Of a DNA stretch of 64,000 nt, positions 5,571 to 60,597 are shown in pieces. Numbering within the stretch: the first letter of the stretch is position 1; every line of letters starts with the position of its first letter. The DNA is taken from IMG/VR virus record IMGVR_UViG_3300035696_000002. One strand, given 5' to 3'. Made by a program: the position numbers and the translations under genes. Below the pieces are notes generated by a model. The model saw only the letters and a program-made list of their open reading frames with translations. It was not told where the DNA came from and ran no database searches. Origin of the DNA: a virus (lineage: Duplodnaviria; Heunggongvirae; Uroviricota; Caudoviricetes).

Positions 5571-6403
5571 CGGAATTGTTGAAGTGGTTTCTGAACTGGA
5601 TCAGCCAAGGCGACAACATCTGGATTGCCATTCTGATCGGTGGGGCAATTACCACCATCATCTACACCGGGAGCGAGGCTCTGGTGAAGATCATCCGGGA
5701 ACTGAAAAGAAAGTAGCATGTTCAACGTCGGCGACAAAGTAACGCGGATGATGGGAGGTTCGATTCCCATGGAGTTGACCGTAACGGCGGTCACCGAAGA
5801 CCGCATCATCTGCGGGCCGTGGGAGTTTGACAAACGCACCGGGGCTGAGATCGACGAAGATTTTGGATGGGGGCCGGGGTTCTCCGGTAGCTACATCCAA
5901 GTGCCCGGCGTCACATATATCTCATTGGAGAAATAGTATGCTGCCTGCAATCAAAGAAGTGATCGAGAAGCACGTCATGGCATACGGCCCCAATCGGAAG
6001 GGCTGCGTCATGTACATGACTGACGGCGTCCGCAAGGCTGCCGACGAACTCGGGATCAGCTATGAAGCCGCCAAGGAATTGGTGCGTTGCTGGATCAGCG
6101 AGGAGTTCTGATGCCCCGACTGCGGGTCAAGGTCGTGATCGAACGCATGTACGCCATGCAGGAGTGGAACAACGACTTGATCGGGTCGGTGGTCAACTTC
6201 GACACGGGGGAACGTTTGCCGGACTTCATGTCCTTCAAGCTGGTAGCCGTGGTCGGAGGTCAGGCTGTCGGCGTCTCGGGGCCGCTGCCTTATCTGACTG
6301 AGATGCGGGGTGAGGTCACCTATCACGACCCCTCGGATTCCGGTAAGATGATTACGCAATATGTGGAAGTCACAGAAATGACAGTTCGGACGGTGAAACC
6401 CTA

Positions 6404-7282: not shown

Positions 7283-8679
7283 GGGGAATATGGCAAAGAA
7301 GAGGTTGAACAAAAACGCGAAAGCGTGGATCGCCGCTCTACGTAGCGGGAAGTTTCGCCAAGCTACGCAACATCTGGGCTATCGCGGGGCGTATTGCTGC
7401 CTCGGCGTGGCCTGTGAACTCGCTGCCAAGGCCGGGGTCATCCCGGCACGTGTCATCGAGAACAAAGTCTATGCCTACGGTACGGACGAAGAGGGCCGGG
7501 AAACCGGGACGCTGCCCCAATCTGTTCAGGACTGGTTGGGCCTGAACGATGCGAGTGGGAGCTATCAGGACAAGGACGGCAAAAACCTCGACCTGACCGT
7601 GTTGAACGATGAAGGCGTGAAATTCAAGGAAATCGCCGACGTAATCGAGAGCCGTCCTCAAGGTTTGTTTGCATAAATTCTGGCGACTGTGCTAGGATTG
7701 ATGTATGACACAACGGCTCAAAGGTTTTGTGGTTACGCTTGAAAAAGACTTGCGTGAGGATGACGCCGAAGTCATCCTCAACGCTCTCCGCATGATCCGT
7801 CATGTCGAGTCCGTCGAGCCCGTCGAATCCAACTTTGACGATCAAATGAATCGCTCCCGAATTCGTTCCGAATTTAGGGACAAACTCTGGGCGGTACTAT
7901 ATCCTGAATACGCGAAAGAGAAACAATAACCATGGCCAACAAAAAGAAAAACAAAAAGGACGGGCTCCAGCCGAAGTTTGAGTCCAAGGTGCTGCTCCTG
8001 CACTGTAAGTGCGATTCATGCACAAACTGGGAACTCGCGTACCATCTCGGGGCTTACTACCTCGTGTGTGCGACCTGCGAGGAACAGGTGTTCTTGAACC
8101 TGACTAACCTCGACCCACATCCTCAATTTCACTGGGAGCCGAAAAAGTAGTTATGACTTACACGCAGCTTGAATCTTCCGTGAAAGGCGGGTTCGTGTGC
8201 TTCGCCGTGTTGGCGATCATCAACGGATTTACGTCCACACACTGGTACGGTAGGCTTGGCGAATTCCTTGGGTACATGATCGGCTGGATGATGTTCAGCC
8301 TGATCTACGATTATTTCCGGGGTCTGTGGAAGAGCCGCGATGGGAACTGACGCATACGAAGGCGTTCCTCGTTTGGAACGGGTTGCCGACATCGTCACGG
8401 GTCTCCAGAAGACATACCCGGACGCCAAGAAGCTGGCCATCGACATTCGCTTTGAGTGGGTGACGACGGATGTCTACACGGATGGAGCGGAACTTTGCCC
8501 CGTTGTCAAGATCAACATCGAGAGGTAACGATGTACGAGCGATTCCTAAACTGGTGCGGCGACCACCCCTTCCTCACGCTGGGGCTATTCGCACTGGTTT
8601 TTGTGATCGTTTTCGGGCTGGCAGTTCAAACGGGCATCATCACGGAACATACCAAGCTGATGCCTTACTAGGGGTTGTT

Positions 8680-15117: not shown

Positions 15118-15207
15118 GGAGAGTTGGGCGAGTGGCTTATGCCGTCTGGTTGCTAACCAGATGCCCCTTAACCGGGGCCGGGGGTTCGAATCCCTCACTC
15201 TCCGCCA
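15118..15207 (+). tRNA. tRNA-Ser(GCT)
   Basis: Cloverleaf, loop TTGCTAA, long variable arm, GTTCGAAT, GCCA end. Confidence 0.95.
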
Positions 15208-15211
15208 TCTT

Positions 15212-15303
15212 GGTGAGTTGGGAGAGTGGTTTATTCCAGCAGCTTGGAAAGCTGCCGCACTCCGCAAGGGGTGCCGGGGGTTCGAATCCCTCACTCACCG
15301 CCA
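15212..15303 (+). tRNA. tRNA-Ser(GGA)
   Basis: Loop TTGGAAA, long variable arm, GCCA end. Confidence 0.95.
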
Positions 15304-15470
15304 GTTCGATTGTTCTGTATGGTGAATTTGCCCCTACAGGGCAAAGGTTGGATACAAAAAGCAAGGGGCCGGGTACATGAAACCCCGGCCTCGCGTGCTA
15401 CGGCAGCGGGACATTTATGAGGTCTGTCTATGCCGCGTGATCCTGACCTGAATAGTAATACCGGATTTTT

Positions 15471-15563
15471 GGAGGGTTTGGTACATTGGCAAGTCCGGCT
15501 GCCTTGAAAGCAGTTATACGCCTAACCCGCGTATTGGGGGTTCGACTCCCTCACCCTCCGCCA
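15471..15563 (+). tRNA. tRNA-Ser(TGA)
   Basis: Loop CTTGAAA, long variable arm, GCCA end. Confidence 0.93.
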
Positions 15564-15673
15564 TTTTGAGTCACCCGATTTTGGGTGACAAACGCAAAGT
15601 CAGCCTATTTTGGGTGACAAGCTTAAAACGTTGACATTGCCAGAATCAAGCTTAAAAGCTTGACAACGAATTT

Positions 15674-15769
15674 GGAGAGGTTGGTACATGTGGCAAGTCC
15701 GCTCGCCTCGAAAGCGAGTCACGGGGTTAACCACCCCGTGTGCAGGTTCGACTCCTGTCCTCTCCGCCA
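15674..15769 (+). tRNA. tRNA-Ser(CGA)
   Basis: CTCGC-CTCGAAA-GCGAG, long variable arm, GCCA end. Confidence 0.93.
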
Positions 15770-16314
15770 TTTTTGCAGTATTATTGTTGTATGACCGAAA
15801 AAGAGTTGTTCGAGAAAGTTCAGGCCTACAACGATAAGCTGAAAGAGTACGGGTCGCGTAAACAGCTTCATACGTCGTTGGGCACCACTTTCCCAGAAGA
15901 GAAGCAGTTCCGCGAAGAGATCGACAAGCTCCTGAAAGAGATCGCCATGGAGTTTGTGCGGCAACGCGAGATCGCGAGGGCTGAAGGTGCCTGAACGAAT
16001 TTGCGAAGTGAACATGTATCGCGGGACTGGCGAATTTCTCGGCCAAGATTGGACGGACGGCATGCACGGGCCGATGTCAAATGTCCGGTCAGAGAAGAAC
16101 AAAATCGGATGCTTCAATCCGGCCCGCTGGCTGAATCCGTTCTACGATCCCGAGGGCACCAGATTTAGATCGGTGTGGGACGACGATTCTGATGTTTCAC
16201 TCCCCATCACTGGGGGTTATAATTACGCCCAGTGGCTCTGCACGGAGCACTATGACGAGGTTATCGTCATGGCAAAGGAAGACGAAGAGATCGACCGCGT
16301 GCGTAGGGGAATTG

Positions 16315-16569
16315 ATGAGGATTAAGGTCGTTTACCGAAAGAACCTAAAGATGTCGCCCGGCAAGCTGGCGGCTCAGACTGGACACGCTGTACTGGGGCT
16401 CAATGGGGCCTACGCTTCGATGTCGATTGTGGTGCTCGAAGCGAGTGACAAGAAGTTTCAGGAAACGAAGGCGGCTCACCCCGAGGCCTGTGTGGTTCGG
16501 GACGCTGGCCGAACAGAAGTTGCACCCGGTACCGAAACGGTGCTGGCTTACTTTGAGGATGGTCAATGA
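16315..16569 (+). CDS. pth2: Peptidyl-tRNA hydrolase, Pth2 family (compact)
   Basis: LKMSPGKLAAQTGHA and VRDAGRTEVAPGTET motifs. Confidence 0.9.
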   Translation: MRIKVVYRKNLKMSPGKLAAQTGHAVLGLNGAYASMSIVVLEASDKKFQETKAAHPEACVVRDAGRTEVAPGTETVLAYFEDGQ

Positions 16570-16651
16570 AGTTATACGACCGATTATATCCGCATCGCAT
16601 GTGGATCATGCTTGGGTTTTTGATATGCATGTGGATCGCAACTGAATACAT

Positions 16652-16728
16652 GCTCCGGTGATGCAATAGGCAGACATCCTCCACTTAAAACGGAGGTTTT
16701 GAGAGTTCGATTCTCTCCCGGAGTACCA
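16652..16728 (+). tRNA. tRNA-Leu(TAA), short variable loop
   Basis: Acceptor GCTCCGG/CCGGAGT-ACCA, loop CTTAAAA, GTTCGATT T-loop. Confidence 0.8.
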
Positions 16729-39971: not shown

Positions 39972-40045
39972 GGGGGTGTCGGTTAATGGCAAACCAGCGG
40001 TCTCCAAAACCGTGACTGGGGGTTCAAGTCCCTCCACCCCCGCCA
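39972..40045 (+). tRNA. tRNA-Trp(CCA)
   Basis: GCGGT-CTCCAAA-ACCGT, GCCA end. Confidence 0.93.
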
Positions 40046-40064
40046 AAAGATTGAGGCGGAGATT

Positions 40065-40692
40065 ATGGAATTGAAGATTGAACAGCAGACGCGAGGCACC
40101 CGCATCCTGCGGGGGGAGTCAGCTACCCGGAGGCGACTTCATCTCATCTAGTCTCGCAACAGCAGCGACGGCAGCCGGGTACGAGGAAATCGTACTCCCG
40201 TCGCTAGAGCCAGCCGCTCTCTACGCTGAAAAGGCTGGCCCTGAGATTCTGGGACAGATGTACTGCTTCCCGGACAAGAAAGGCAGGCAGTTGTGCCTGC
40301 GACCGGAAGGAACGGCGACCTGTCAGATACTCGCCGACACGGTAATGAAAATGGAGCGAGACGTGAAGCTCTGGTATCTGACGACCTGTTGGCGTTACGA
40401 ACGACCACAGGCTGGGCGGTACCGGGAGTTCACACAGTTCGGGGTGGAAATCCTGAACCCACGCGGCCCCGTCCGGGATGAGTTAGTGGCTTTGGCCGAA
40501 AGCATGGTGCGGCAGTTCACGGATCAGTATGAAGTGAACGCGGCAGTCAAGCGGGGGCTGGCCTACTACGTCGAGGATGGCTTCGAAATCAGTTGCCCGG
40601 CACTGGGGGCTCAGAAGCAAGTCTGCGGCGGCGGTTCATACAAGCAAGGCTGCGGTTTCGCAATTGGGGTAGATCGCATGATGCTTGTGTGA
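40065..40692 (+). CDS. Histidyl-tRNA synthetase catalytic-core-only protein, split by +1 frameshift near 40137-40142
   Basis: RGTR N-terminal motif in frame of ATG 40065; LRPEGT, WRYERPQAGRYREFTQFGVE, RGLAYY, GGGSY, GFAIGVDR in the +1 frame; no anticodon-binding domain. Confidence 0.85.
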
Positions 40693-40697
40693 CGTAT

Positions 40698-40774
40698 GGT
40701 GGGCGTAGCTTAATGGTTAAAGCATCTGGCTGTGAACCAGAAGGTTGCGGGTTCGATTCCCGTCGCCCACCCCA
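40698..40774 (+). tRNA. tRNA-His(GTG)
   Basis: G-1:C73, loop CTGTGAA, CCA. Confidence 0.95.
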
Positions 40775-40785
40775 AAATTTTATAT

Positions 40786-40863
40786 GGTGTCATTGGTGTA
40801 GGGGCTTATCACGGCGGACTGTGAATCCGCTATTCGTGGGTTCGAATCCCACATGACACCCCA
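40786..40863 (+). tRNA. tRNA-His(GTG), second divergent copy
   Basis: G-1:C73, GCGGA-CTGTGAA-TCCGC, CCA. Confidence 0.92.
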
Positions 40864-41022
40864 AGATTGGAAGTGCACCATGTGGTACGACGACAACGTG
40901 TGCGAAGTTTGCGGGTTGGAAAAGCCGGACGTTCGTGAACGCGAGTGCGGTTACTCGATGGAACTGACTGGCGAAGTGCACTTGGAAGTTATTTGCGATG
41001 ACTGCGAACACCAGCATTGCAT

Positions 41023-41099
41023 GGACGTGTAGCTCAGTTGGATAGAGCGTTCCCCTCCGAAGGGAAAGGTCGCAGGTTCGACTCCTGCCATGTCCACCA
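41023..41099 (+). tRNA. tRNA-Arg(CCG)
   Basis: TTCCC-CTCCGAA-GGGAA, ACCA end. Confidence 0.95.
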
Positions 41100-41347
41100 G
41101 TTTATGAGTAGAACATTTACAATTCACGATACGGAACTCGCTACGTTCGAGAAGTTCAAGGCAGAGCACGAACCAAAGTGCGTCTACCACGGCGACACGA
41201 TGGCGAATCCGGGGCACATTCGGTACTTCACGCCGACATCGGCGTACACGATTATGTTCAAGCCGACAGGCGTCGGTGACGGCGTGCATGTGAAGTGCCT
41301 TTGCGGTGAAGAGGTAGACATCACCGATTACGAATTGTGGTAGTTTT

Positions 41348-41424
41348 GCTCGTGTAGCTCAACAGGAGAGAGCGTACCCCTGCGAAGGGTAAGATTTGTG
41401 GTTCGAGTCCACTCACGAGTACCA
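41348..41424 (+). tRNA. tRNA-Arg(GCG)
   Basis: TACCC-CTGCGAA-GGGTA, ACCA end. Confidence 0.88.
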
Positions 41425-41435
41425 TTTTAGATTTT

Positions 41436-41513
41436 GCCCGGTTACCCATTGGACATGGGGCCTCGTCTTCGAAACGAGGACGCTCAAGGGTTCGAATCCC
41501 TTACCGGGTTCCA
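41436..41513 (+). tRNA. tRNA-Arg(TCG)
   Basis: CTCGT-CTTCGAA-ACGAG, TCCA end. Confidence 0.88.
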
Positions 41514-41589
41514 GATTTTGGTCTGACACACGCTGGTGTCAGCGTAAGCGAGGGTCGCCGTAATCAGTCGCCCTTCGGCCATGAAGTTT

Positions 41590-41666
41590 GTTTCCGTAGC
41601 TCAACTGGATAGAGTACGTGGCTACGAACCACGGGGTTGGGGGTTCGAATCCCTCCGGGAACACCA
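41590..41666 (+). tRNA. tRNA-Arg(ACG)
   Basis: CGTGG-CTACGAA-CCACG, ACCA end. Confidence 0.95.
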
Positions 41667-41679
41667 GATGTTGTAACAT

Positions 41680-41766
41680 TGGGATGTAGAGCGTAATTGG
41701 TAGCGTGCACGGCTGTTAACCGTGTGTCGAAAGACCTTGTAGGTTCGAGCCCTACCGTCCCAGCCA
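41680..41766 (+). tRNA. tRNA-Asn(GTT) with extra variable hairpin
   Basis: CACGG-CTGTTAA-CCGTG, GTC-GAAA-GAC variable arm, GCCA end. Confidence 0.85.
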
Positions 41767-41783
41767 AATTCATAGGAGGCGTT

Positions 41784-42038
41784 ATAGGCAAACAGAAGGA
41801 AGTGAAATTCAGCGTCAGGGTCAGCGACCATGACTACGGTTACAGAGTCGAGCAGGTGAAGCGATTTCTGGCCAAGAAGCATAGTGTTTTGGCTGTGGTG
41901 CAGTTTAAGGGGCGTGAGATCACACATCCCGAACTTGGGCAAGAGTTGTTGGCCCGGCTGCTAACCGATCTGGGGAGAAACGGAACTCCCGTCCTGAAGG
42001 GACGATCACTTCAAGTTCTGATTACGCCTAAGAGTTGA
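41784..42038 (+). CDS. infC: Translation initiation factor IF3 C-terminal domain, probable ATA start
   Basis: KEVKFSVRVSDHD...RFL...VQFKGREITHPELG; AGGAGG followed by in-frame ATA. Confidence 0.8.
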   Translation: MGKQKEVKFSVRVSDHDYGYRVEQVKRFLAKKHSVLAVVQFKGREITHPELGQELLARLLTDLGRNGTPVLKGRSLQVLITPKS

Positions 42039-42115
42039 GCGGTGCCGTAGAAGGCAACCCTGTTCAATAGGAGGGCAGAGACCAAAGCGGTACTGCTCAA
42101 AAAGTTTTGATGTAT

Positions 42116-42203
42116 TGGGAAGTAGGAAAATTGGCAACCCCAGAGGATTCTGAATCCTCCGTGCTTAAGCACACTGAAGGTTCGAATCCTTCCTTCCCAG
42201 CCA
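42116..42203 (+). tRNA. tRNA-Gln(CTG) with long variable arm
   Basis: GAGGA-TTCTGAA-TCCTC, GTGC-TTAA-GCAC arm, U1-A72, GCCA end. Confidence 0.85.
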
Positions 42204-42216
42204 AGTTTAGGAGTCG

Positions 42217-42286
42217 TGGACTGTAGCTTAGTTGGCAGAGCACCCCCGGCAAGGGGGAGACGCGGGTTCGATTCCCGCCAGCCCGA
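42217..42286 (+). pseudogene. tRNA-like element with non-canonical anticodon arm
   Basis: Good D and T arms, CCCCC-GGCAA-GGGGG hairpin, no CCA. Confidence 0.6.
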
Positions 42287-42369
42287 ATACGAACGACTCT
42301 TAGTGCTGAGAGTGGACGAGGATTTGTCCTGATCGTATCGGGACGTAGAATTGTCCGCTCTCGTTGCAT

Positions 42370-42444
42370 TCCTCGGTAGCTCAGGGGTAGAGCAGGTGGC
42401 TGTTAACCACCCTGTCGGAGGTTCGAATCCTTCCCGAGGAGCCA
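42370..42444 (+). tRNA. tRNA-Asn(GTT)
   Basis: GGTGG-CTGTTAA-CCACC, GCCA end. Confidence 0.95.
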
Positions 42445-42560
42445 AGTTAGGTTAGAAGGTCGCGGACACAGGAACCGCCTCTCGTGTACTGTACGCTTCG
42501 GCTATCGACAGAGGACGGGTGTAGCTCAGGGAGAGCATCTAACCTGAAAGTTTGAAGCTG

Positions 42561-42628
42561 GGGGGCGTAGCTCAATGGTAGAGCAGCCCACACAAGGGAA
42601 GATGCGGGTTCGAGTCCCGCCGCCCCCA
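42561..42628 (+). pseudogene. tRNA-like element with truncated anticodon arm
   Basis: GGGGGCG/CGCCCCC acceptor, canonical D and T arms, CCC-ACACAA-GGG arm, no CCA. Confidence 0.6.
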
Positions 42629-42716
42629 TAAGGCTTCATTAAAGGGCCAGAGATAGACCGGGACGCCGGGAACGTCGTGAAATCCTCATAGGCCCCACGT
42701 GATTAGAAGTAAAGCT

Positions 42717-42793
42717 GGGTGTGTGGTGTCAACGGCTAACATATCTCCCTCTTAAGGAGCAAGATGCTGGTTCAAATCCAGTCACACCCACCA
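42717..42793 (+). tRNA. tRNA-Lys(CTT)
   Basis: Loop CTCTTAA, ACCA end. Confidence 0.88.
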
Positions 42794-42814
42794 AGTTTGT
42801 GTTAGAGTGAAGTC

Positions 42815-43627
42815 ATGTTGCATCACGTAATTCAGAAGGACATGTTTCACGAGTTCGGGTTTCATACTCTGATTCGTGCGATGGAAGAAAACGAAGTCCC
42901 GTATTGCGTGGTGAAGATCATCCCGTTCAGTCATGAACTGACGTGGGAGTCAGGTGTGCCGCTGCCGGAGAGCACGGTGCCGACAATGATCTGGGGCATG
43001 ACCTGTGTTGAGGAAGTCGCCGGAGTAAGACAATGGACGCCCGGCGTGTTCAAGAACGAGAATTTCGATTTGCGTGTGATCGGCGAGAGGTACGGCGAGA
43101 ACATGCTGAATGCCGACGCGAAGTTTTGCAGGCTGGGGGATATTCCAGCGTTTGAGGGATCGGCATTCATTCGCCCGGTACACGACACAAAGTCGTTTAC
43201 CGGAGCCCTTATCAATGGCGAAGACCTGCGAACTTGGCAGGATCAGCTAATGCAGTTGAAGGGTGAGTTCACGACGTTGAGTCTGGACACCCCGGTGCTG
43301 TACGCCAGCCCGAAGAAGATTGATACTGAGTGTCGCTTCTTTGTGGTGGATGGAAAAGTTATCACTGGTAGTTCGTATCGGGTTAACGGTAGAGTATTAT
43401 ACAAGAGGGTGAACGCCGACAACCCGATGTGCATCCCCCTGAGGGAGTTTGCACAGAGAATGGTTGACCAGTGGCAACCTGTTGAAGCATTCGTGATCGA
43501 CATCGGACGAGTCGGCCAAGAATGCAAAGTGATCGAGATCAACTGCTTGAATTCGTCGGGGTTTTACGACTCGGACATGGCGGCGGTGGTCAGGGCGATC
43601 ACGAATTTACCAAGTTTGGATCGGTAG
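42815..43627 (+). CDS. ATP-grasp domain protein (DUF4343/R2K-like)
   Basis: FIRPVHDTKSFTG, ECRFFVVDGKVI, FVIDIG, IEINCLNSSGFY. Confidence 0.8.
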   Translation: MLHHVIQKDMFHEFGFHTLIRAMEENEVPYCVVKIIPFSHELTWESGVPLPESTVPTMIWGMTCVEEVAGVRQWTPGVFKNENFDLRVIGERYGENMLNADAKFCRLGDIPAFEGSAFIRPVHDTKSFTGALINGEDLRTWQDQLMQLKGEFTTLSLDTPVLYASPKKIDTECRFFVVDGKVITGSSYRVNGRVLYKRVNADNPMCIPLREFAQRMVDQWQPVEAFVIDIGRVGQECKVIEINCLNSSGFYDSDMAAVVRAITNLPSLDR

Positions 43628-43693
43628 CTCAATTGGCAGAGCAGGTGACTCTTAATCATCAGGTTGGGGGTTCGATTCCCTCCCGGTTCACCA
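43618..43693 (+). tRNA. tRNA-Lys(CTT)
   Basis: GGTGA-CTCTTAA-TCATC, ACCA end; overlaps stop of upstream CDS. Confidence 0.93.
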
Positions 43694-44486
43694 ATTTTAC
43701 GGGTCGCTTAGAAGACGGAAGCAGGCGGCGGTACCGCCGTTGCGGGTTCAATGTCCGCCCCGTGAATTCGGGTCGAAGGCTAAATGCCTGATTGTTCCCG
43801 TGGACACCCAAACGAAAGAGGCGTGACCAAGCCGGAGAGTCGGCACCAGTTTTATGCGAAAGACGTGTCCCAGTTGTCTCGGTGATGACGCAGCAGAGCG
43901 AGAAGGCCGGAATTTCGACCCTCTCTATGGCACCGTAGAGATTTACTGCACGTACTGTGGCTCGTTTGTGGACATGATCTGGCGATGGCAGACAGACGAT
44001 TCGGTCTGGCAAAAGTTTAAGGAACAAGCGAGGGGATATGTGGGGTGCTCCTGAGGACGTGCCGGGTCGTTGTAACGCCCGGCTTTTTGTTGGGGACGAT
44101 TATGGCGACAACACCGCGACGTTCATGTGCGAGTTAGACCCCGGCCACGAAGGTAAGCACCGGGAAGTCTTCCGCGATGGCACAGCGGTCATAGAGTGGG
44201 AGACCGATGAGAGGCAGACCGGGAACGATCCTGACCTGTAAGGATTTTGCGGATTTGGGCATCGAATGTTGCGAGGCCTGCCACGACGTAGAGAATCTTG
44301 ACCCGCTTTTACGGATCAGGGTCGATGGGCAGGAAGCCCTAGTTTGTTGTGAAATAATGGCATTTTTCTACCCTGACGAAGCAGATCAGGCGGATTTTTG
44401 GCAAGCTCAAATGGACGAGGCCGAGGCGTTAAACCCACCAAAGCCAGAGGACTTTGAAAACCCTGAATAGAAGGGGAATTGATTTT

Positions 44487-45035
44487 ATGGCTGACACTCT
44501 AGTACTTGACATGTCGGGAACCCCAATCGGGTTCGTTTCTTGGCAGCGGGCTGTGAAGCTCTACTGGGAAGACCGTGCCGTCATCGTGGATGATGACGCA
44601 AACCGGATTCTCCACTCGCCGTCCTTCGAAATGAACATGCCGACCGTCATCCGTGCTAAGAACTGGGTGCAGCGTCGGAAGAAGGAACGTGTCCCGTTCT
44701 CGCGTCGCAACATCGCGATCCGCGACAACAGCCGTTGCCAGTACTGCAATAAGCTGTTGCAGACGGCCCAGTACACGATGGATCACGTCATCCCTCGTTG
44801 CAAGGGCGGAACGTCTACGTGGACGAACCTCGTGCTTGCTTGCATCCGTTGCAACAAGTACAAGTCTGGTTGCACGCCGGAGGAGGCAGGTATGCATCTG
44901 TTGAAGCAGCCTATCGAGCCGAAGGCAGATGACCCGAAGTACAACTTCAAGCTTCGGATCAAGAAGATGCACCCGACGTGGAAGCCGTGGGTCGATGGCG
45001 GCTGGCTGTACTGGAACATCGAACTGGACAAGTAG
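44487..45035 (+). CDS. HNH endonuclease
   Basis: RRNIAIRD..CQYC..TMDHVIPRCKGG..WTNLVLACIRCN..K. Confidence 0.92.
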   Translation: MADTLVLDMSGTPIGFVSWQRAVKLYWEDRAVIVDDDANRILHSPSFEMNMPTVIRAKNWVQRRKKERVPFSRRNIAIRDNSRCQYCNKLLQTAQYTMDHVIPRCKGGTSTWTNLVLACIRCNKYKSGCTPEEAGMHLLKQPIEPKADDPKYNFKLRIKKMHPTWKPWVDGGWLYWNIELDK

Positions 45036-45712
45036 GAGAAGTCATGAGCCTAGTGCTAAGCGGCGATTTTTGCGGCTGTGAGAAGCATCATGGCTCATGG
45101 CACTCCAACTGCCCCGAGTGTGACACGGAAGAGGGCAAGTCCTGCTGGAAGTTTTTGCACGTGCAACTACCGTGCGGTAAGTGCGATAATTGCATTCGCA
45201 ACGGGAACAAGCCGTATGATTGGCGTAAGGAAATGCTGGGCGGGGAGTTTACCGAAAGTTTCATCGCTTGAAGGAGCCTTATGGACGTTGACAGTATTCG
45301 CAAGTTGGGCATTAGCAGCAGCCTCGGAGACAAGGAAACAGTAGCTCTCTTCGAGAAGTTGATCGCATACGGCTGGATTGACGGGGCCGGGCGGTCGTTA
45401 CCGTGGACGGCTCATCTTCGCCGCAAGGATCGTGCAGCGGCAGCGGGGCGTGAGTAATGCCGTACAACTACCCCGGCTTACTTCGCAGCGAAGACACCAA
45501 CGACCACGATTGGCGGATTGTGTGTGATGTGCTGGATGCAGCCATCGCTCACTGGAAAAAGCGGAGCGAAACCGAGAGTGATTTGTTCGGTTCGGCCTAC
45601 GGTCATCACTACGTAGGGGCTCTCACAGAAGTTCAGATCGCGTTACTCGGCGGCGAAAGCGACAACGTCGATGAGAAGGCGATTGAGGCCATGATTAAGG
45701 CCGCAAAAGTTT

Positions 45713-45800
45713 GATCCCGTAGTCTAGTTGGACAAGGCAGCGGTTTCCTAAACCGCAGAGCGAAAGCTCATCGGGGGTTCGAATCCCTCCGGGATCACCA
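45713..45800 (+). tRNA. tRNA-Arg(CCT) with extra variable hairpin
   Basis: GCGGT-TTCCTAA-ACCGC, GAGC-GAAA-GCTC arm, ACCA end. Confidence 0.9.
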
Positions 45801-46100
45801 TTTTGATTGCAGGAGCACGCGATGTTTAAGACGATGCAGTTGGTTTATCGGAACATGGTTTGGAACCGCCCGAAGATCGGGCTGTGGGGTTTGATCGTAG
45901 TCGCGTTAGTGGCCACGACAGACCTGTACTTCAGCATTTTGCGGATCGGTGGGGGCCGGGTAACTGCTGGCGTATTCGCCGCCTTCGCACTGAGCTTCTG
46001 GTTCGTCGGGTTGCCAATGGTTCTGACACTGATCGACCTGAAGATGAAGCCCCAGAGGATGGAAAAAATCTGGGCACAGATGCACAAGCAGTAAACGTTT

Positions 46101-46174
46101 TGCCCCTTCGTTCAACGGCAGGACACTTGGCTCTGAACCAAGGTATGGTGGTTCGAATCCATCAGGGGCAGCCA
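46101..46174 (+). tRNA. tRNA-Gln(CTG)
   Basis: CTTGG-CTCTGAA-CCAAG, U1-A72, GCCA end. Confidence 0.93.
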
Positions 46175-46661
46175 AGTTTTGGGCTTCAGAATCCATTTGT
46201 ATATGGAACTGAAACCGTATAAGATCGTTGCAATGCCGTTCGCACAATCTGACGCGACCGCCGAATACACGGAGTATGCGATCAGCGAAGATCAGGCCTT
46301 GCGAAATTTTGAACGACGTTACCCGGCGTACCGGGTTAAAGAAGTAAGGGAAGCGTGAGCAAGTACGACGGAACAATTTGCAACGACTGTAACACCGAGA
46401 TTTATCAGGACAAGTGCAACTGTGATTATTACCGGGCACACCCTGAGGCAACCTTACCCGAGAATGAAACATCTAGGGAGATAGGTCGCAGGATTCGAGA
46501 AGACTTTGGCGATGAGATCGCCGGAGCATTGAAATAGATTATGACCATGCTAAACTACATGCCGCTGATTGCCGCAACCGAGATCATGGTTCTCGTTGTG
46601 CCCCGCCTCGTCTTCGCGATTGCCGCGACTCCTCTCAGACGAAAACGCTAACCCAATCCTT

Positions 46662-46743
46662 GGGGGCGTAGACTCGTGGTCTTCTAAACCATAAGAGCTT
46701 AACCGGACTGAAAATGTGGGTTCGAATCCCACCGCTCCCTCCA
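46662..46743 (+). tRNA. Atypical D-arm-less tRNA-Arg(TCT)-like RNA
   Basis: Acceptor and T arm intact, GTGGT-CTTCTAA-ACCAT, only 7 nt between acceptor and anticodon stems, TCCA end. Confidence 0.6.
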
Positions 46744-46760
46744 TACCTTTGCGTACCTTT

Positions 46761-46835
46761 GCCTCCGTAGCTTAACGGTAAAGCTACCGCCTTTTAAGCG
46801 GATAGATGGGGGTTCGATTCCCTCCGGGGGTACCA
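46761..46835 (+). tRNA. tRNA-Lys(TTT)
   Basis: Loop CTTTTAA, ACCA end. Confidence 0.9.
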
Positions 46836-46917: not shown

Positions 46918-47133
46918 TTCCTTCCTATGCTATAATCACCACGTGAAATACAAAGACTTTTTCATCGACGAGGGCAAATACTTCATCGACGCCGAGAAGG
47001 TGACTCGCGAAGTGTTCAACGAACGCCGATTGAAAGAGTGCTGGCACCACTGGGTGCCGATAGGTGATTCCGACAAAGACGGCGAATGTCGTTACTGTGA
47101 ACTCAAAGTTGTCGGGGGCAAAAAAGTAGTCGA

Positions 47134-47655
47134 ATGATTACCTGCGTGACAGCACCGAGTCGAAGCGGCACCAGCTTGACCATGCAAATGCTACAGGCAG
47201 CGGATGTGCCGCTGTGGTGGGACGCTCTCCCTAATCGCACAGCGTGGAATCCACGCGGACACTTCGAGATCAACACGCGAAAGAACAACGACTGGACGAT
47301 CCTTCTGCCGCTCTGTGAAGGCAGGGCCATCAAGGTGATGCCGTTTGATCTGTACCGCCTGACGCCGGATCACGAATACCGTTTCATCACAATCCTCCGC
47401 AATCCAACAGCCGTCGATGCGTCGCAGCAAGCTGCGGTGGAATTTCGTGGTGCAAAGATGTCTGACGCGGATAAGACCAAGGAATGGCAGCGGTATACGC
47501 TGGACTTTATCAAGGACTACCCACACGTCATCGTCAATTTCGACGACCTGTTCAACGGCAAGGCCCAGCAGAGCATCGGCGAGTTCATGGGCTTCGACGA
47601 CCTCCAAATCGCGAAGATGAACGATTGCGTAGACCCGGAACTCAGGCATTTCTAA
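47134..47655 (+). CDS. Sulfotransferase-like P-loop protein
   Basis: N-terminal PSRSGTSLTMQML, NPRGHFE, ILRNP. Confidence 0.7.
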   Translation: MITCVTAPSRSGTSLTMQMLQAADVPLWWDALPNRTAWNPRGHFEINTRKNNDWTILLPLCEGRAIKVMPFDLYRLTPDHEYRFITILRNPTAVDASQQAAVEFRGAKMSDADKTKEWQRYTLDFIKDYPHVIVNFDDLFNGKAQQSIGEFMGFDDLQIAKMNDCVDPELRHF

Positions 47656-47738
47656 TACCAACCGGAAAAAGATAAAACAAGAAATAGTTTCTGTGGTACG
47701 TTTGTTTCGTGGACACATTCCACAGACAAAGGGTATAT

Positions 47739-48326
47739 ATGTCAAAAGCTGCTGTAAAGGAACAAGCAATTGAGGTAAAACGGTTGGATATTCGTTCTAT
47801 CCGGCTGACGCTCGAAGGCGATTCACCGCTCATTTCCCACAAGTGGGCGGAAAAGGCAAAAAAGGAAATGCTCGACAAGCAGATGAAGAAGGCCAAGACT
47901 GCTAAGGAAGCAAAAGACCCCGAGAAGGACTACAAGGATAGCCTGTATGAGTATCCGGGCGGCGGTTTTGGTTTCCCAACGATTGGCGTCAAGGCTGCTG
48001 CGGTCACCGCTGCTGCTCAATGCGACATGTTCAAAACTGACGCACGTGCAGCATTCCACATCGACGGCGATCTGGTTAAGATCGACGGCGAACCGGAGAT
48101 GCGGGAAGACATGGTGCGAGTTGGCATGGGCACTGCGGACATCCGCTATCGCGGCATGTTCCCCAAGTGGAGGACAACCTTCACGCTCAAGTACAACGCA
48201 TCCGTGTTGTCTGCTGAGCAGATCGTGAACTTGTTCAACGCTGCGGGATTCGGCGTTGGCATCGGTGAGTGGCGTCCCCAGAAGAACGGGTCGTTCGGTC
48301 GCTTTCACGTTGCAAACGAAGCGTAA
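47739..48326 (+). CDS. Stand-alone RAMP/Cas7-like RNA-binding protein
   Basis: N-terminal IRLTLEGDSPLISH strand, FPTIGVKAA helix, IRYRGMFPKW, C-terminal Gly-rich loop GFGVGIGEWRPQKNGSFGRFHV. Confidence 0.75.
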   Translation: MSKAAVKEQAIEVKRLDIRSIRLTLEGDSPLISHKWAEKAKKEMLDKQMKKAKTAKEAKDPEKDYKDSLYEYPGGGFGFPTIGVKAAAVTAAAQCDMFKTDARAAFHIDGDLVKIDGEPEMREDMVRVGMGTADIRYRGMFPKWRTTFTLKYNASVLSAEQIVNLFNAAGFGVGIGEWRPQKNGSFGRFHVANEA

Positions 48327-48368
48327 CAGAAACCGGGGCCTAACCGCCCCGGTAGTTTTTATAAGCGA

Positions 48369-48589
48369 GGTAGGGCAGGCTTGGCATGGTACGGCGGGGA
48401 GAGGCGAGGTCAGGCATGGCAGGTATGGCGTGGTAAGGTCGGGTGAGGCGAGATCGGGGCTAGGCGGGGCAGGCGTGGTGCGGTAAGGTGTGGTCGGGTC
48501 TGGTAAGGCGTGGTTGGGTAGGGCAGGCAAGGTGAGGTGAGGCGGGGAGAGGTGAGGTATGGTTAGGCCCGGCGTGGCAGGCGAGGTGT
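48369..48589 (+). repeat. GGY-NN pentamer array 1 (candidate guide-RNA array)
   Basis: About 40 GG(C/T)NN units punctuated by 4-nt GGCA at 48374, 48418, 48468, 48522, 48576. Confidence 0.9.
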
Positions 48590-48614
48590 GATAAAATCAT
48601 TTTGAGGTGGAGCT

Positions 48615-49091
48615 ATGGTTTACAAATGGAAAGCAGCAGCACAGATCAAAGGACTCGATCCGCAAGTTTGTGGCGACCGGATGGAGTACATCAAGAAAAC
48701 AGTTGGAGCCGTAACAGCAGAAACAGTTCTTGAAGATGCCCGCAACATTAACTCGCCCCTGCACGGTGGTTTCACATGGGACGACAACGAAGCAGCAGAA
48801 CAGCACCGCCTCAATGAGGCACGATATCTTCTTCGTCAGATTGTGATCTACGAGGAGCCCAAAGAACCGGAAGGCGAACCTACGATTATTCGTGCGTTCG
48901 TAAATGTTCAGGAAGAAAACCAGCCGGATGCAACCTATGTTGATATAACGACGGCGATGAGCGATCCAAAATTGCGTGAGCAGATTTTGGAGCGAGCATA
49001 CCGCGAGCTTACGGCGTGGAAAGTTCGTTACGAAGAGTTTGAAGAGTTCGCACGGGTCGTCAAAGCAATCAACTCAGTGAAGCTGAAATAG
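48615..49091 (+). CDS. Accessory protein between the two arrays
   Basis: 158 aa, GAGGTGGAG RBS, SPLHGGFTWDDNEAAEQHRLNEARYLLR motif. Confidence 0.75.
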   Translation: MVYKWKAAAQIKGLDPQVCGDRMEYIKKTVGAVTAETVLEDARNINSPLHGGFTWDDNEAAEQHRLNEARYLLRQIVIYEEPKEPEGEPTIIRAFVNVQEENQPDATYVDITTAMSDPKLREQILERAYRELTAWKVRYEEFEEFARVVKAINSVKLK

Positions 49092-49118
49092 GCGACCGCT
49101 GCGGAGTAGAGCGAAACG

Positions 49119-49395
49119 GGCGTGGTGAGGTACGGCACGGCTAGGTATGGCCCGGTTTGGCGTGGCAGGCGTGGTGTGGCGTGGCCCGTCGCGGTCTGGT
49201 GTGGTAAGGTAGGGTTAGGTATGGCAGGCGAGGTAAGGCGGGGATAGGCATGGTGCGGTGCGGCACGGCAGGTGAGGTGAGGTGAGGCGGGCTGGGCGAG
49301 GCATGTTTGGGCGGGGCGAGGCAGGCGGGGCTGGGCTGCGTATGGCATGGTCGGCAGGGTCAGGTCGGGTTTGGCATGGCAGGCACGGATCGGAT
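49119..49395 (+). repeat. GGY-NN pentamer array 2 (candidate guide-RNA array)
   Basis: About 50 GG(C/T)NN units punctuated by GGCA at 49164, 49223, 49267, 49320, 49378. Confidence 0.9.
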
Positions 49396-49420
49396 AAACC
49401 CCCTGAGTTCAGGGGGTTTC
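49396..49420 (+). terminator. Terminator-like hairpin closing array 2
   Basis: AAACCCCCTGA-GT-TCAGGGGGTTT. Confidence 0.75.
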
Positions 49421-49460
49421 CTATTGGCCAAAATACCGTCTTCCCCGGTATACTATAGAT

Positions 49461-50399
49461 ATGGAAACGCCCACCATTGACCAGTTTGTCACCGCCGACC
49501 CCCGCCGAGAAGAACGCTGGCACGCCGCGAAAAAGATGATCGCCGAAGGTCTGGCGAACAAACAAATCTGGAACACCGAATTTGAGTTGGCGAAATCCAA
49601 CCTGCACGCCATCGGCGAAGCAGCCCTCGAAGTCCCCTATGATGCCCTCCTGAACCGCCTCCGCAATGACGCCGACTGGCGGGTCGAAGTAAACAGTGAA
49701 GCCCGGTGGGCGATCAGCGGCTATTATCAGTTCAACGAACTCCCGAAGCGAATCCGGCTGTTGGAAAAGATGCAGGAACCGATCCGGTCGCAGGTTGAGC
49801 CGTACCTGCAAGTGTGCCGCGAGTTGGTCACCGTGGGCAACGATCTCAAGGCCGTGAAGCCTTTCATCGTGAAGGGCCGCAAACCGAATCCGAATGCACC
49901 GCCTGTCGAAGTCACCATGGCGAACACTGGCCAGTGTGCGATCTGCGGTCGCCGCCAGAAGATGAATAAGTACAACGCCATCGTTGACCATGGCTTCCAG
50001 ATTTCAGACGGCGTGCACTACTTCGGCTACCGGGCAGGACATTGCTTCGGTGTTGGCTACGAGCCGAGCGAACTTTCCTGCAAGGCGAATCAGGCGTACA
50101 AGAAAGTTCTGGAGAATTCCCTGTCCGAGACTGAGGAGACACTGGCCGAACTCGAAGCTTCCAATTTCGAGCAGTTGAGCGAGACCGTCCGGGTCAAGGA
50201 AAAGAATTTCAATTACCGCAACGAGAAACGCACCCACCTGAAAGGCACGCCGGATTACGAGCGTGTCCGCAAGAACAACATCGACCGGGCTCAGGAGCAG
50301 ATCAGAACGCTCAAGAGCGACATCAACTATCAGGCTGAGATCATCAAGAATTGGAAACCCTCACCGCTTCTCTACGGCTCCAAAGCTGACCAGAAATAG
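49461..50399 (+). CDS. Hypothetical protein with CxxC/H/C metal motif
   Basis: 312 aa; GQCAICGR..DHGF..HCFG; probably leaderless. Confidence 0.65.
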   Translation: METPTIDQFVTADPRREERWHAAKKMIAEGLANKQIWNTEFELAKSNLHAIGEAALEVPYDALLNRLRNDADWRVEVNSEARWAISGYYQFNELPKRIRLLEKMQEPIRSQVEPYLQVCRELVTVGNDLKAVKPFIVKGRKPNPNAPPVEVTMANTGQCAICGRRQKMNKYNAIVDHGFQISDGVHYFGYRAGHCFGVGYEPSELSCKANQAYKKVLENSLSETEETLAELEASNFEQLSETVRVKEKNFNYRNEKRTHLKGTPDYERVRKNNIDRAQEQIRTLKSDINYQAEIIKNWKPSPLLYGSKADQK

Positions 50400-59655: not shown

Positions 59656-60597
59656 ATGGCGAAACCAAAGGCACCGAAACCGGAAGCTGCACCGAAATCC
59701 ACCACTCCTGAACTCGATATTCCCGTCCAAAAAACCACTGTCAAGTCCAACTGGAAAGGCACCATGGTCATTTTCGACGGCGTGTCTGCGTTCCCCGTCA
59801 AGACCTACGTTGCGACCGACAACGATGCTTTCGAGCGTCACATGTATCACGGCTTCGTGCCCGTCATGAAAGACGGCAAGCCTGTGATGAAGGATGGCGT
59901 CGCCGAAATGCACCTGTGCGGCGGCAGCATGAAACAGGATTTGATGTCGTGCGAAATTTGCGGCACGAAGGCTGGCAAGACTGACCCGGCCATCGTCAAA
60001 GGTTTGAAGTTCGGCGACAAGCTGGTCGTGGTCACCGACGAAGCTGTGAACGCTCAGAAACCCATGAGCGATTCCACCATGAAGCTGACCGAGTACGTTG
60101 ACCCGAACGAAATCAACCCCAAGTACATCGAGAGCACCGAATACATCGCCCCGGATAAGGGCGGCGAAATCCCGTTCGCGGTTTTGGTTGCCGCGTTGCA
60201 ACGCACGAACAAAGTTGCCAAGGGCGTTCGCGTGAAGGGCGGCAAGGAACAGTACTTCGTGGTTCGCCCGGAAGGCCAGAACGGCCTCGTCCTGTCGTAC
60301 CTGTTCGCCGAGTACGAAGTCCGCAAGTGCGACAAGTGGACGCCGCTGGCAGTGCCAGACAAGGTTGTCGATCTCACGGCCAAGCTGATCGAAGCCAACA
60401 CCGTGAAGTTCACCCCGGCTCCGGCTGACCGCTTCCTGACCAACGTCCGCAAGTACGTGCGTTCGTTGTTCGACGGCACCACGGCGGCGACGGTCGAGGC
60501 ATACAAGGCCCCGGCTGCGACCGACAATCTGGAAGATGCACTGTTGAAGGCTCTGGCGAACGCTCAGGCTGCCAAGGCTGCGAAGGCTGGCAAGTAA
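59656..60597 (+). CDS. ku: Ku DNA end-binding protein
   Basis: SNWKGTMVI..FPVKTYVAT, IVKG, EINPKYIESTEYIAPD, L.YLFAEYEVR, NLEDALLKAL. Confidence 0.85.
   Translation: MAKPKAPKPEAAPKSTTPELDIPVQKTTVKSNWKGTMVIFDGVSAFPVKTYVATDNDAFERHMYHGFVPVMKDGKPVMKDGVAEMHLCGGSMKQDLMSCEICGTKAGKTDPAIVKGLKFGDKLVVVTDEAVNAQKPMSDSTMKLTEYVDPNEINPKYIESTEYIAPDKGGEIPFAVLVAALQRTNKVAKGVRVKGGKEQYFVVRPEGQNGLVLSYLFAEYEVRKCDKWTPLAVPDKVVDLTAKLIEANTVKFTPAPADRFLTNVRKYVRSLFDGTTAATVEAYKAPAATDNLEDALLKALANAQAAKAAKAGK

What the first reader, a model, noticed from the sequence alone, without database searches (positions are those of the whole stretch)
47739..49420. Stand-alone Cas7/RAMP-like gene with two GGY-NN pentamer arrays: candidate RNA-guided system with a gapped code
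Seen: a 195 aa protein with a RAMP-type first strand and C-terminal G-rich loop, then a hairpin (about 48330-48360), array 1, a 158 aa gene, array 2 and a closing hairpin. The arrays have a fixed 5-nt period with constant GG(C/T) and a variable dinucleotide. No cas1/2/3/5/6 genes or classical repeat-spacer array occur in the window. Established: Cas7 subunits polymerise along guide RNA with a fixed nucleotide period. Inference: each subunit binds one GGY and presents the NN, so concatenated NNs specify a non-contiguous nucleic-acid target, for example in competing phages or host defence genes. From memory this resembles recently reported viral 'VIPR'-type loci; I could not verify that here.
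Basis: partly seen in the sequence, partly recalled or inferred. Interest (0 to 1): 0.96.

Follow-up and report, generated by a model that had tools for sequence, protein, structure and literature searches.

The report
VIPR guide-RNA system in huge phage
A 463-kb peat phage carries a VIPR system, a CRISPR-related RNA-guided DNA silencer first described in 2026 preprints; it is a new example of a known kind, and one of its guides appears aimed at the integrase operon of a small mobile element in peat Acidobacteriota.

Summary
It is VIPR, described in bioRxiv 10.64898/2026.04.26.720920, .720927 and 2026.10.15.759431, and this scan has met it on other genomes.

- **Protein.** The 195-aa protein matches the solved SUSP1 Vipr by sequence (E 4.6e-5). 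Its model hits only Csm3/Cas7 chains, and it keeps the GGY-reading residues.
- **Arrays.** Both arrays are GGYNN pentamers (G 78/79, G 76/79, Y 76/79; NN about 1.9 bits). A 4-nt GGCA unit punctuates them every 5-11 units, the published 'staggered' architecture. That gives about 10 guides.
- **Relatives.** 72 of 80 homologous viral loci carry a same-strand array, none on the opposite strand. 69 of 80 carry the same accessory gene.
- **Genome.** The 463-kb genome has no Cas1, Cas2, Pfam RAMP or CRISPR array.

New here:
- The host is a complete, tRNA-rich huge phage from peat.
- The array is split around the accessory gene.
- Guide 49168-49222 matches 22/22 under the 1-nt-skip rule, in codon register. 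The site lies in a small ORF just upstream of a large serine integrase, in a roughly 8-kb integrative element of peat Terriglobia.
- Two guides partly match vipr's own RBS/start.

Novelty: new member of a known kind.

The parts
47739..48326 (+). vipr: 195-aa minimal RAMP (Cas7-like) protein
   Evidence: phmmer against PDB chains finds 36pp_D 'SUSP1 Vipr protein', E 4.6e-5, residues 128-191. hhalign of the family alignment against a Felixounavirus Vipr gives 97.1% probability, E 6e-11. The AF2 model has pLDDT 83.7. The listed Foldseek PDB matches with E<=1e-3 are all CRISPR effector chains, mostly Csm3/Cas7 of types III and VII. It matches phrog_4652 at 2.8e-32. More than 7,700 homologues were found.
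48332..48353 (+). GC-rich hairpin plus T run after the vipr stop (terminator-like or attenuator)
   Evidence: -17.4 kcal/mol, z -3.1. It is not conserved in relatives. L003 has no hairpin, and the L001 hairpin lacks a T run.
48369..48589 (+). vrRNA array 1. Guides: 48378-48417 (8 units), 48422-48456 (7, then 2 more units after a 1-nt slip), 48472-48521 (10), 48526-48575 (10), plus short end pieces. GGCA junctions at 48374, 48418, 48468, 48522 and 48576.
48615..49091 (+). vap-like accessory gene, 158 aa
   Evidence: A homologue lies next to vipr in 69 of 80 viral loci, and in Mycobacterium phage Quico and Gordonia phage UmaThurman at 32-35% identity, E 1e-17 to 1e-18. It matches phrog_15946 at 1e-19. 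The family has 10,131 representatives at E<=1e-3. The model has pLDDT 92.6. Residues 12-111 resemble winged-helix domains only weakly, Z<=5.3. It is not related to Felixounavirus vap1.
49119..49391 (+). vrRNA array 2. Guides: 49119-49163 (9 units), 49168-49222 (11), 49227-49266 (8), 49290-49319 (6), 49324-49348 (5), 49353-49377 (5). GGCA junctions at 49164, 49223, 49267, 49320 and 49378.
49168..49222 (+). Guide with a candidate natural target
   Evidence: Its 1-nt-skip pattern (22 informative bases) has one exact hit in metagenome contigs, L086:11025-11056. The hit is in codon register in a small ORF upstream of a serine integrase. Homologous elements keep 21/22, including a Ca. Sulfotelmatobacter MAG.
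49396..49419 (+). Closing hairpin, likely terminator of the locus
   Evidence: -17.6 kcal/mol, z -3.2.
47725..47743 (.). vipr RBS/start codon, partly matched on opposite strands by two array-2 guides
   Evidence: Units 4-9 of guide 49119-49163 match 12/12 on the minus strand. Units 1-5 of guide 49227-49266 match 10/10 on the plus strand. This is the only place in 463 kb where two guides have perfect runs of five or more units within 40 nt.

Best explanation
This is a VIPR (Viral Interference Programmable Repeat) system carried by a 463-kb huge phage from peat.

**How it works.** The 195-aa Vipr protein is a minimal Cas7-like RAMP. The two G-rich arrays encode about ten guide RNAs (vrRNAs) made of GGYNN pentamers. 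By analogy with the characterised SUSP1 system, Vipr protomers polymerise one per pentamer. They bury each GGY and present each NN. The resulting filament binds double-stranded DNA whose sequence reads NN-x-NN-x, with every third base skipped, and blocks transcription there. This step is inferred.

**Array form.** The arrays are of the published 'staggered' kind. There is no 3' tail. Instead a conserved 4-nt GGCA unit shifts the register by one base and marks the guide boundaries. I infer that this break in the 5-nt register ends one filament and starts the next.

**Accessory gene.** The 158-aa gene between the arrays is the clade's conserved accessory gene. It may be a winged-helix-like DNA binder, but the evidence for that is weak.

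**Target.** At least one guide (49168-49222) is probably aimed at a small ORF that overlaps the start of a large serine integrase gene. That operon belongs to a roughly 8-kb integrative element found in peat Terriglobia (Acidobacteriota). Silencing the operon would immobilise the resident element during infection. The same logic was shown experimentally for SUSP1 and its satellite. It also implies that the phage infects Terriglobia (inferred).
For: **Shown here**
- Sequence homology to the solved SUSP1 Vipr and to a Felixounavirus Vipr.
- Csm3/Cas7 fold.
- The SUSP1 residues that read G1, G2 and Y3 are H17, R138, D177, W178 and R179 (paper). They align with H34, R138, E177, W178 and R179 here. 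H34 is at least 90% conserved and the others are invariant in 25 homologues.
- GGYNN statistics, and confinement of such runs to the locus within the genome.
- The GGCA junction accounts for 32 of 37 four-nt units across five loci. These include Mycobacterium phage Quico and Gordonia phage UmaThurman, whose Vipr is about 41% identical.
- 72 of 80 IMG/VR homologue loci have a same-strand array of at least 8 units, and none has one on the opposite strand. 69 of 80 have the vap homologue.
- No window guide resembles any relative's guide by more than 75%.
- No cas genes or CRISPR array in the genome.
- The record is a virus record, CheckV 100% complete, with 22 tRNA genes in the window.

**Target**
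- One exact 22/22 hit, against roughly 0.05-0.1 expected by chance (my estimate).
- NN falls on codon positions 1-2 and the skipped base on the wobble position.
- The site lies 42-73 nt upstream of the integrase start codon.
- A 64%-identical homologue keeps 21/22. Three of the four nucleotide differences fall on skipped bases and the fourth is a synonymous AGG-to-CGG change.
- The element occurs in a Ca. Sulfotelmatobacter SPRUCE peat MAG, and the phage comes from peat metagenomes.
- A reversed-pattern control gave 1 hit at up to 2 mismatches in 401 genomes.

**Literature**
- Mechanism, 1-nt-skip rule, staggered arrays and targeting of a satellite serine recombinase.
Against: - No expression or binding data exist for this locus.
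- The terminator-like hairpin between vipr and array 1 leaves unclear how array 1 is transcribed, and no promoter was found.
- Only one of ten guides has a candidate target.
- The exact-match expectation depends on a collection size I had to estimate.
- The other long guides found nothing in IMG/VR, in five candidate host MAGs, in the phage's own genome or in 85 related loci.
- The accessory protein's fold matches are too weak to assign a function.
- The VIPR type (I-VII) could not be assigned, because the paper's tree and tables are not held.
Confidence: 0.9

Rival explanations
1. It is a VIPR system, but the integrase-operon hit of guide 49168-49222 is a chance match. The real targets are unsampled rival phages or elements, or host genes.
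For: There is a single hit in a very large collection, and I estimate 0.05-0.1 chance hits. No second guide hits the same element. The element is absent from IMG/VR and present in only 1 of 401 sampled genomes of the order.
Against: - Codon-register alignment has about a 1-in-3 chance.
- The site sits immediately upstream of a mobile-element integrase.
- The habitat matches (peat, SPRUCE).
- The site survives synonymous divergence.
- It parallels the experimentally shown SUSP1 target.
Confidence: 0.25
2. The system works mainly on the phage itself. The partial matches of two guides to vipr's own RBS/start make the locus an autoregulated or temporally regulated gene-control module, not an inter-element weapon.
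For: Perfect gapped matches of 6 and 5 units lie on opposite strands at 47725-47743. This is the only such co-hit in 463 kb. A six-unit guide is functional in SUSP1 (paper).
Against: - Single 6-unit matches occur 3 times in the genome against 1.6 expected.
- About 0.2-0.3 guide pairs within 40 nt are expected somewhere in the genome (my estimate).
- The feature is not general. Only 3 of 76 related loci, two of them near-identical, show a run of at least 5 units at their vipr start, against a 0.5% null.
- Full-length identity is only 12/18 and 11/16.
Confidence: 0.12
3. The G-rich pentamer tracts are not guide RNAs. They could be DNA-level elements such as G-quadruplex-forming or protein-binding repeats, or degenerate glycine-rich coding sequence.
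For: The tracts are strongly strand-asymmetric and G-rich. ORF callers do find frames across them, and the UmaThurman array is annotated as a CDS.
Against: - They are linked on the same strand to a Vipr homologue in 72 of 80 loci and never on the opposite strand.
- GGY is conserved while NN is free, which is not a codon pattern.
- The one-base register slips would break any reading frame.
- Published sRNA-seq and cryo-EM cover homologous systems.
Confidence: 0.02

Closest known systems
VIPR systems with 'staggered' vrRNA arrays (bioRxiv 10.64898/2026.04.26.720920, fig. S18 legend)
   Same: It has a minimal RAMP protein plus an accessory gene. Tail-less GGYNN arrays have guides that abut with a 1-nt register overlap, seen here as the 4-nt GGCA unit. 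It is phage-borne, with no cas genes and no CRISPR array.
   Different: The array is split in two around the accessory gene; the usual order in 80 relatives is vipr-vap-array. The host genome is a 463-kb tRNA-rich huge phage, and the paper text never mentions jumbo phages or megaphages. The type number could not be assigned.
Type II VIPR of Escherichia phage SUSP1 and a Pseudomonas fulva prophage (same preprints; PDB 36pp)
   Same: The Vipr proteins are homologous, and the G-loop motif GxGxWRP...FGRF and the GGY-contacting residues are conserved. The 1-nt-skip, wobble-aligned targeting logic is the same. The candidate target is a serine recombinase operon of an integrated element, as for SUSP1 vrRNA4.
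   Different: Only the C-terminal 65 or so residues align significantly. There is no invariant 3' tail or pseudoknot after each guide. The accessory protein is unrelated to Felixounavirus vap1. Here the site lies in a small ORF upstream of the integrase, not in its catalytic core.
CRISPR-Cas Cas7/Csm3 backbone subunits (types III and VII)
   Same: RRM core, thumb and glycine-rich loop fold. Foldseek gives E 3.5e-5 to 1e-3 and TM 0.33-0.56. Polymerisation along a guide RNA at a fixed period holds for VIPR according to the literature.
   Different: The period is 5 nt with three bases buried, not 6 nt with one base flipped. There is no repeat-spacer array, no Cas1, Cas2, Cas5, Cas6 or Cas10, and no Pfam RAMPs match. 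The target is double-stranded DNA read discontinuously.

Membership tests
VIPR system | Vipr protein: small single-RRM RAMP with thumb and G-loop, homologous to characterised Vipr | tested here: met
   PDB 36pp_D SUSP1 Vipr, E 4.6e-5. hhalign 97.1%, E 6e-11 against a Felixounavirus Vipr. The listed Foldseek matches with E<=1e-3 are all CRISPR effector chains, mostly Csm3/Cas7.
VIPR system | Residues that read GGY (SUSP1 H17, R138, D177, W178, R179) | tested here: met
   They align with H34, R138, E177 (D to E), W178 and R179. R138, E177, W178 and R179 are invariant and H34 is at least 90% conserved in 25 homologues. The N-terminal alignment segment is not significant on its own.
VIPR system | Adjacent same-strand arrays of GGY/NN pentamers, with GGY conserved and NN hypervariable | tested here: met
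   72 of 80 relatives have a same-strand array and none an opposite-strand one. The window's guides are at most 75% like any relative's guide.
VIPR system | Minimal locus with an accessory vap gene and without cas genes or a CRISPR array | tested here: met
   The vap homologue lies beside vipr in 69 of 80 loci and in two cultured actinophages. There is no Cas1, Cas2, RAMPs or CRISPR-like repeat in 463 kb.
VIPR system | Natural targets under the 1-nt-skip rule, with skipped bases on codon wobble positions | tested here: inconclusive
   One of ten guides has a 22/22 wobble-aligned match upstream of a serine integrase. The others have none above the shuffled null.
VIPR system | vrRNAs are transcribed, processed and co-purify with Vipr, and the complex represses transcription | not testable with these tools
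   No RNA run is listed for this DNA. This needs sRNA-seq, a pull-down and a reporter assay.
Type II VIPR (SUSP1-like) | Each vrRNA ends in an invariant structured 3' tail (pseudoknot); the accessory gene is vap1 | tested here: not met
   Guides abut at GGCA with no tail. The array has no significant structure, z -0.95. The vap is unrelated to Felixounavirus vap1, E 0.7-1.4.
CRISPR-Cas (class 1) | Repeat-spacer array, adaptation genes cas1/cas2, multi-subunit effector | tested here: not met
   None found in the whole genome. Only the Cas7-like fold is shared.

The most novel reading that the evidence does not exclude
Two array-2 guides carry perfect gapped matches to opposite strands of vipr's own ribosome-binding site and start codon (47725-47743). 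One match has 6 consecutive units and the other has 5. The VIPR locus may therefore repress its own effector gene through partial-match guides. CRISPR-Cas systems do something similar with tracrRNA or CreR-type RNAs. Alternatively these may be anti-VIPR guides aimed at rival phages that are kept just below the self-targeting threshold. No autoregulatory reading appears in the third preprint, which holds no 'autoregulat' term; I did not run that term search on the other two.
Probability: 0.3. Interest if true: 0.6.

Novelty: new member of a known kind. Interest (0 to 1): 0.35.

Why it matters
- It extends VIPR to a complete 463-kb huge phage from peat soil.
- The same staggered-array clade with the GGCA junction reaches cultured Mycobacterium and Gordonia phages. 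In one of them the array is misannotated as a protein-coding gene.
- The locus supplies a concrete, testable natural target. The recombinase-silencing strategy shown for an E. coli phage and its satellite may also operate in Acidobacteriota, a phylum with almost no phage genetics. The guide also gives an indirect host assignment for an uncultured huge phage.
- The partial self-match at the vipr start is a cheap test for autoregulation in VIPR.
- None of this changes the picture of what VIPR is.

Tried and rejected
**Target searches that found nothing**
- Exact 1-nt-skip patterns of the three longest guides in IMG/VR: 0 hits each.
- The 22-base guide in genome contigs: 0 exact hits.
- Two 20-base guides at up to 2 mismatches in the five MAGs reached through L094 and L096-L099: 0 hits.
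- Full-length guides against the phage's own genome: only shuffled-null levels. The skip-3 'hits' are the arrays themselves.
- Window guides against 85 related loci, to test whether they target relatives' VIPR loci: nothing above null.
- 294 guides from relatives against the integrase element: nothing beyond chance.
- Other window guides against 33 kb around the element in the Sulfotelmatobacter MAG: nothing.
- Relatives of the integrase in IMG/VR: none.

**Annotation searches that found nothing useful**
- Pfam for Vipr and vap: no family.
- Rfam on 47000-50000: no match.
- Promoter scan: nothing upstream of vipr or the arrays.
- Foldseek PDB for vap: nothing below E 0.3. VIA-align gave Z<=5.3, too weak to name a fold.
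- The protein atlas shows only unnamed viral clusters.

**No usable answer**
- Sequencing runs: no RNA holder is listed, only peat DNA runs.
- Vipr-Vap complex prediction returned no verdict.
- Type (I-VII) assignment was not possible, because the preprint's supplementary tables and tree are not held.
- A general test for self-matches at vipr starts across 76 loci found no general feature.
Full report
**1. What is in the sequence**

- An ORF at 47739-48326 (+, 195 aa).
- A GC-rich hairpin at 48332-48353, followed by a T run.
- A G-rich tract at 48369-48589.
- An ORF at 48615-49091 (+, 158 aa).
- A second G-rich tract at 49119-49391.
- A closing hairpin at 49396-49419.

Both hairpins are stable, at -17.4 and -17.6 kcal/mol with z about -3. 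The tracts themselves have no significant fold (z -0.95).

I tiled the tracts with a dynamic-programming parser. They resolve into GGYNN pentamers.
- In the 79 units of the called guides, position 1 is G in 78, position 2 is G in 76 and position 3 is C/T in 76.
- The two N positions carry 1.86 and 1.92 bits, and 15 of the 16 dinucleotides occur.
- Nine of the 11 runs of four or more perfect GGYNN units on either strand of the whole 463,033-bp genome lie in these two tracts. My estimate is that about two such runs are expected by chance.

Every 5-11 units there is a 4-nt unit, almost always GGCA, that shifts the register by one base. These junctions divide array 1 into four full guides plus end pieces, and array 2 into six guides.

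**2. The protein**

- Pfam gives nothing. PHROGs places the protein in phrog_4652, of unknown function, at 2.8e-32.
- A phmmer search of PDB chains finds 36pp_D, 'SUSP1 Vipr protein', at E 4.6e-5 over residues 128-191.
- A profile of 25 homologues aligns to the Vipr of a Felixounavirus with 97.1% probability, E 6e-11.
- An AlphaFold model has pLDDT 83.7 and pTM 0.77.
- Every listed Foldseek match with E<=1e-3 is a CRISPR effector chain, mostly Csm3/Cas7 of types III and VII. The best has E 3.5e-5, and TM is 0.33-0.56.

The cryo-EM preprint names the SUSP1 residues that read GGY: H17, R138, D177, W178 and R179. They align here with H34, R138, E177, W178 and R179. R138, E177, W178 and R179 are invariant and H34 is at least 90% conserved in the 25-sequence alignment. 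The family is very large, with more than 7,700 hits.

**3. Relatives and linkage**

- Two metagenomic relatives at 75-85% identity show vipr, then a GGYNN array, then a homologue of the 158-aa gene, with different NN.
- The closest cultured-phage homologues are about 41% identical: Mycobacterium phages such as Quico, and Gordonia phage UmaThurman.
- Quico has the array upstream of vipr. UmaThurman has it downstream, where it is annotated as a CDS.
- Across these five loci the 4-nt junction is GGCA in 32 of 37 cases, followed by GGC in 30 of 37.
- In 80 IMG/VR loci that encode a homologue, 72 have an array of at least 8 units on the vipr strand within 2.5 kb, and none has one on the other strand.
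- 69 of those 80 loci encode a homologue of the 158-aa protein. The usual order is vipr-vap-array. This window and its nearest relatives put an array between vipr and vap.
- No window guide is more than 75% like any of about 290 guides from relatives.

**4. The accessory gene**

- The 158-aa protein belongs to a large viral family, with 10,131 representatives at E<=1e-3. It matches phrog_15946, and the protein atlas shows only unnamed viral clusters.
- It is 32-35% identical to the gene next to vipr in Quico and UmaThurman.
- Its model is confident, with pLDDT 92.6, but has no clear structural relative. Foldseek finds nothing below E 0.3, and VIA-align gives Z<=5.3.
- Many of the rows for residues 12-111 are winged-helix domains. 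These are followed by a helical hairpin.
- That is compatible with the DNA-binding Vaps the preprint predicts for some VIPR types, but it does not establish the function.
- The protein is unrelated to the vap1 of SUSP1-like Felixounaviruses.

**5. Context**

- The window lies in a single 463,033-bp virus record rated 100% complete by CheckV.
- The window holds 22 tRNA genes and phage-type genes: an HNH endonuclease, a nucleotidyltransferase and a Ku-like protein.
- The DNA is held by peat metagenome runs.
- The genome has one vipr copy. It has no Cas1, Cas2 or Pfam RAMPs match and no CRISPR-like repeat array.

**6. What is known**

Three 2026 preprints describe VIPR.
- Vipr is a minimal RAMP. 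vrRNAs are 9-16 GGY/NN repeats.
- One protomer binds each repeat, GGY is buried and NN pairs with double-stranded DNA while every third base is skipped.
- Binding represses transcription. Natural targets are competing mobile elements, and the skipped bases fall on codon wobble positions.
- There are seven types. [quoted passage not shown]
- The third preprint shows that SUSP1 silences the serine recombinase of its satellite with a six-unit guide.

The GGCA junction seen here is the sequence signature of the staggered form. The locus meets every defining feature I could test (see Membership tests). It is not type II. I could not assign the type number, because the tree and tables are not held. 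This scan has already filed several staggered VIPR arrays on other genomes.

**7. Targets**

- I applied the published 1-nt-skip rule. No guide matches the phage's own genome at full length above a shuffled null. That agrees with the preprint's report of no self-targeting.
- Exact patterns of the three longest guides found nothing in IMG/VR.
- The 11-unit guide 49168-49222 gave exactly one exact hit in the metagenome collection, at L086:11025-11056. It gave none in the species-representative genomes.
- With 22 informative bases I expect about 5e-14 hits per position. That is roughly 0.05-0.1 chance hits for a collection of 0.5-1 Tb. The collection size is my estimate.
- A reversed-pattern control at up to 2 mismatches gave 1 hit in 401 genomes, in line with a uniform model.
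- The hit is in codon register. The NN pairs are codon positions 1-2 and the skipped bases are wobble positions. The ORF is 79-99 aa, and its stop overlaps the start region of a large serine recombinase gene (PF00239). The site lies 42-73 nt upstream of the integrase ATG.
- The same ORF-plus-integrase pair at 64% protein identity keeps 21 of 22 bases. Three of the four nucleotide differences fall on skipped positions, and the fourth is a synonymous AGG-to-CGG change.
- Close integrase relatives lie in MAGs of Ca. Sulfotelmatobacter (a SPRUCE peat MAG, 21/22), Terriglobales, Acidobacteriaceae and one Verrucomicrobiia.
- In the Sulfotelmatobacter contig the element is about 8 kb, by my estimate from host gene positions. 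It has a replication-initiator-like gene and the integrase, and no structural genes. Host genes flank it.
- A related element carries a DUF3987 protein instead.
- No other guide hits these elements.

I rate this target as probably real, at about 0.7-0.75. If it is real, the phage probably infects Terriglobia.

**8. A lead from another first-stage note**

Note e1-5713859 said that array segments match the vipr RBS/start. I tested this.
- Units 4-9 of guide 49119-49163 match 12/12 on the minus strand at 47726-47742.
- Units 1-5 of guide 49227-49266 match 10/10 on the plus strand at 47725-47738.
- Single six-unit matches are not rare: 3 in the genome against 1.6 expected.
- This is nevertheless the only place in 463 kb where two different guides have perfect runs of five or more units within 40 nt. 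I estimate 0.2-0.3 such pairs anywhere in the genome by chance. The chance that one falls at the system's own start codon is therefore about 1e-4.
- The feature is not general. Only 3 of 76 related loci show a run of five or more units at their vipr start, and two of those are near-identical.
- Six-unit guides work in SUSP1, so autoregulation is possible but unproven.

**9. Verdict**

The locus is a new member of a published kind, not a new system. The interest lies in four details:
- a huge-phage host;
- an array split around the accessory gene;
- a concrete candidate target in an Acidobacteriota integrative element;
- a possible self-regulatory site.

Noticed in passing
window 47725-47743: Two array-2 guides (49119-49163 and 49227-49266) have perfect gapped matches of 6 and 5 units to opposite strands of vipr's own RBS/start codon. 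This is the only such double hit in the 463-kb genome.
   Followed up: partly
window 47690-47726: A 7-bp inverted repeat (TCTGTGG ... CCACAGA, 23-nt spacer) lies just upstream of the vipr RBS and abuts the partial self-target. It could be an operator or a leader hairpin.
   Followed up: no
L005 3126-3421 (Gordonia phage UmaThurman, KU963251.1): The gene annotated as CDS gp40 (hypothetical protein) coincides with a staggered GGYNN vrRNA array downstream of a Vipr homologue. This looks like a misannotation.
   Followed up: partly
L004 2132-2372 (Mycobacterium phage Quico, NC_028751.1): A staggered GGYNN array with GGCA junctions fills the unannotated gap upstream of gp57 (Vipr homologue, 41.7% identical). 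gp58 is the vap homologue. The locus sits next to the Cro/antirepressor region.
   Followed up: partly
L094 about 1-7650 plus adjacent L107 (Ca. Sulfotelmatobacter sp. SPRUCE MAG, JBEKRE010000055.1): An integrative element of about 8 kb carries a replication-initiator-like gene, small ORFs and a large serine integrase. It has no structural genes and is flanked by host genes, which makes it satellite-like. A related element in L091 carries a DUF3987 protein and DUF5131.
   Followed up: partly
window 15118-16728 and 39972-46835: The window holds 22 tRNA genes in two clusters, including four tRNA-Ser and four CGN tRNA-Arg. The whole record is a complete 463-kb phage genome. Other first-stage notes propose leader-peptide attenuators upstream of these clusters.
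   Followed up: no
window 49461-50399: The 312-aa gene right after the closing hairpin matches phrog_28271 (unknown function). It has weak Endonuclease VII/DUF6062-like hits around a Cys-rich segment. It is not conserved next to vipr in relatives.
   Followed up: no
window 59656-60597 and 44454-45035: A Ku-like DNA-end-binding protein (phrog_4873, 6e-18) and an HNH endonuclease (phrog_16726, 1e-31) are encoded in the huge phage.
   Followed up: no
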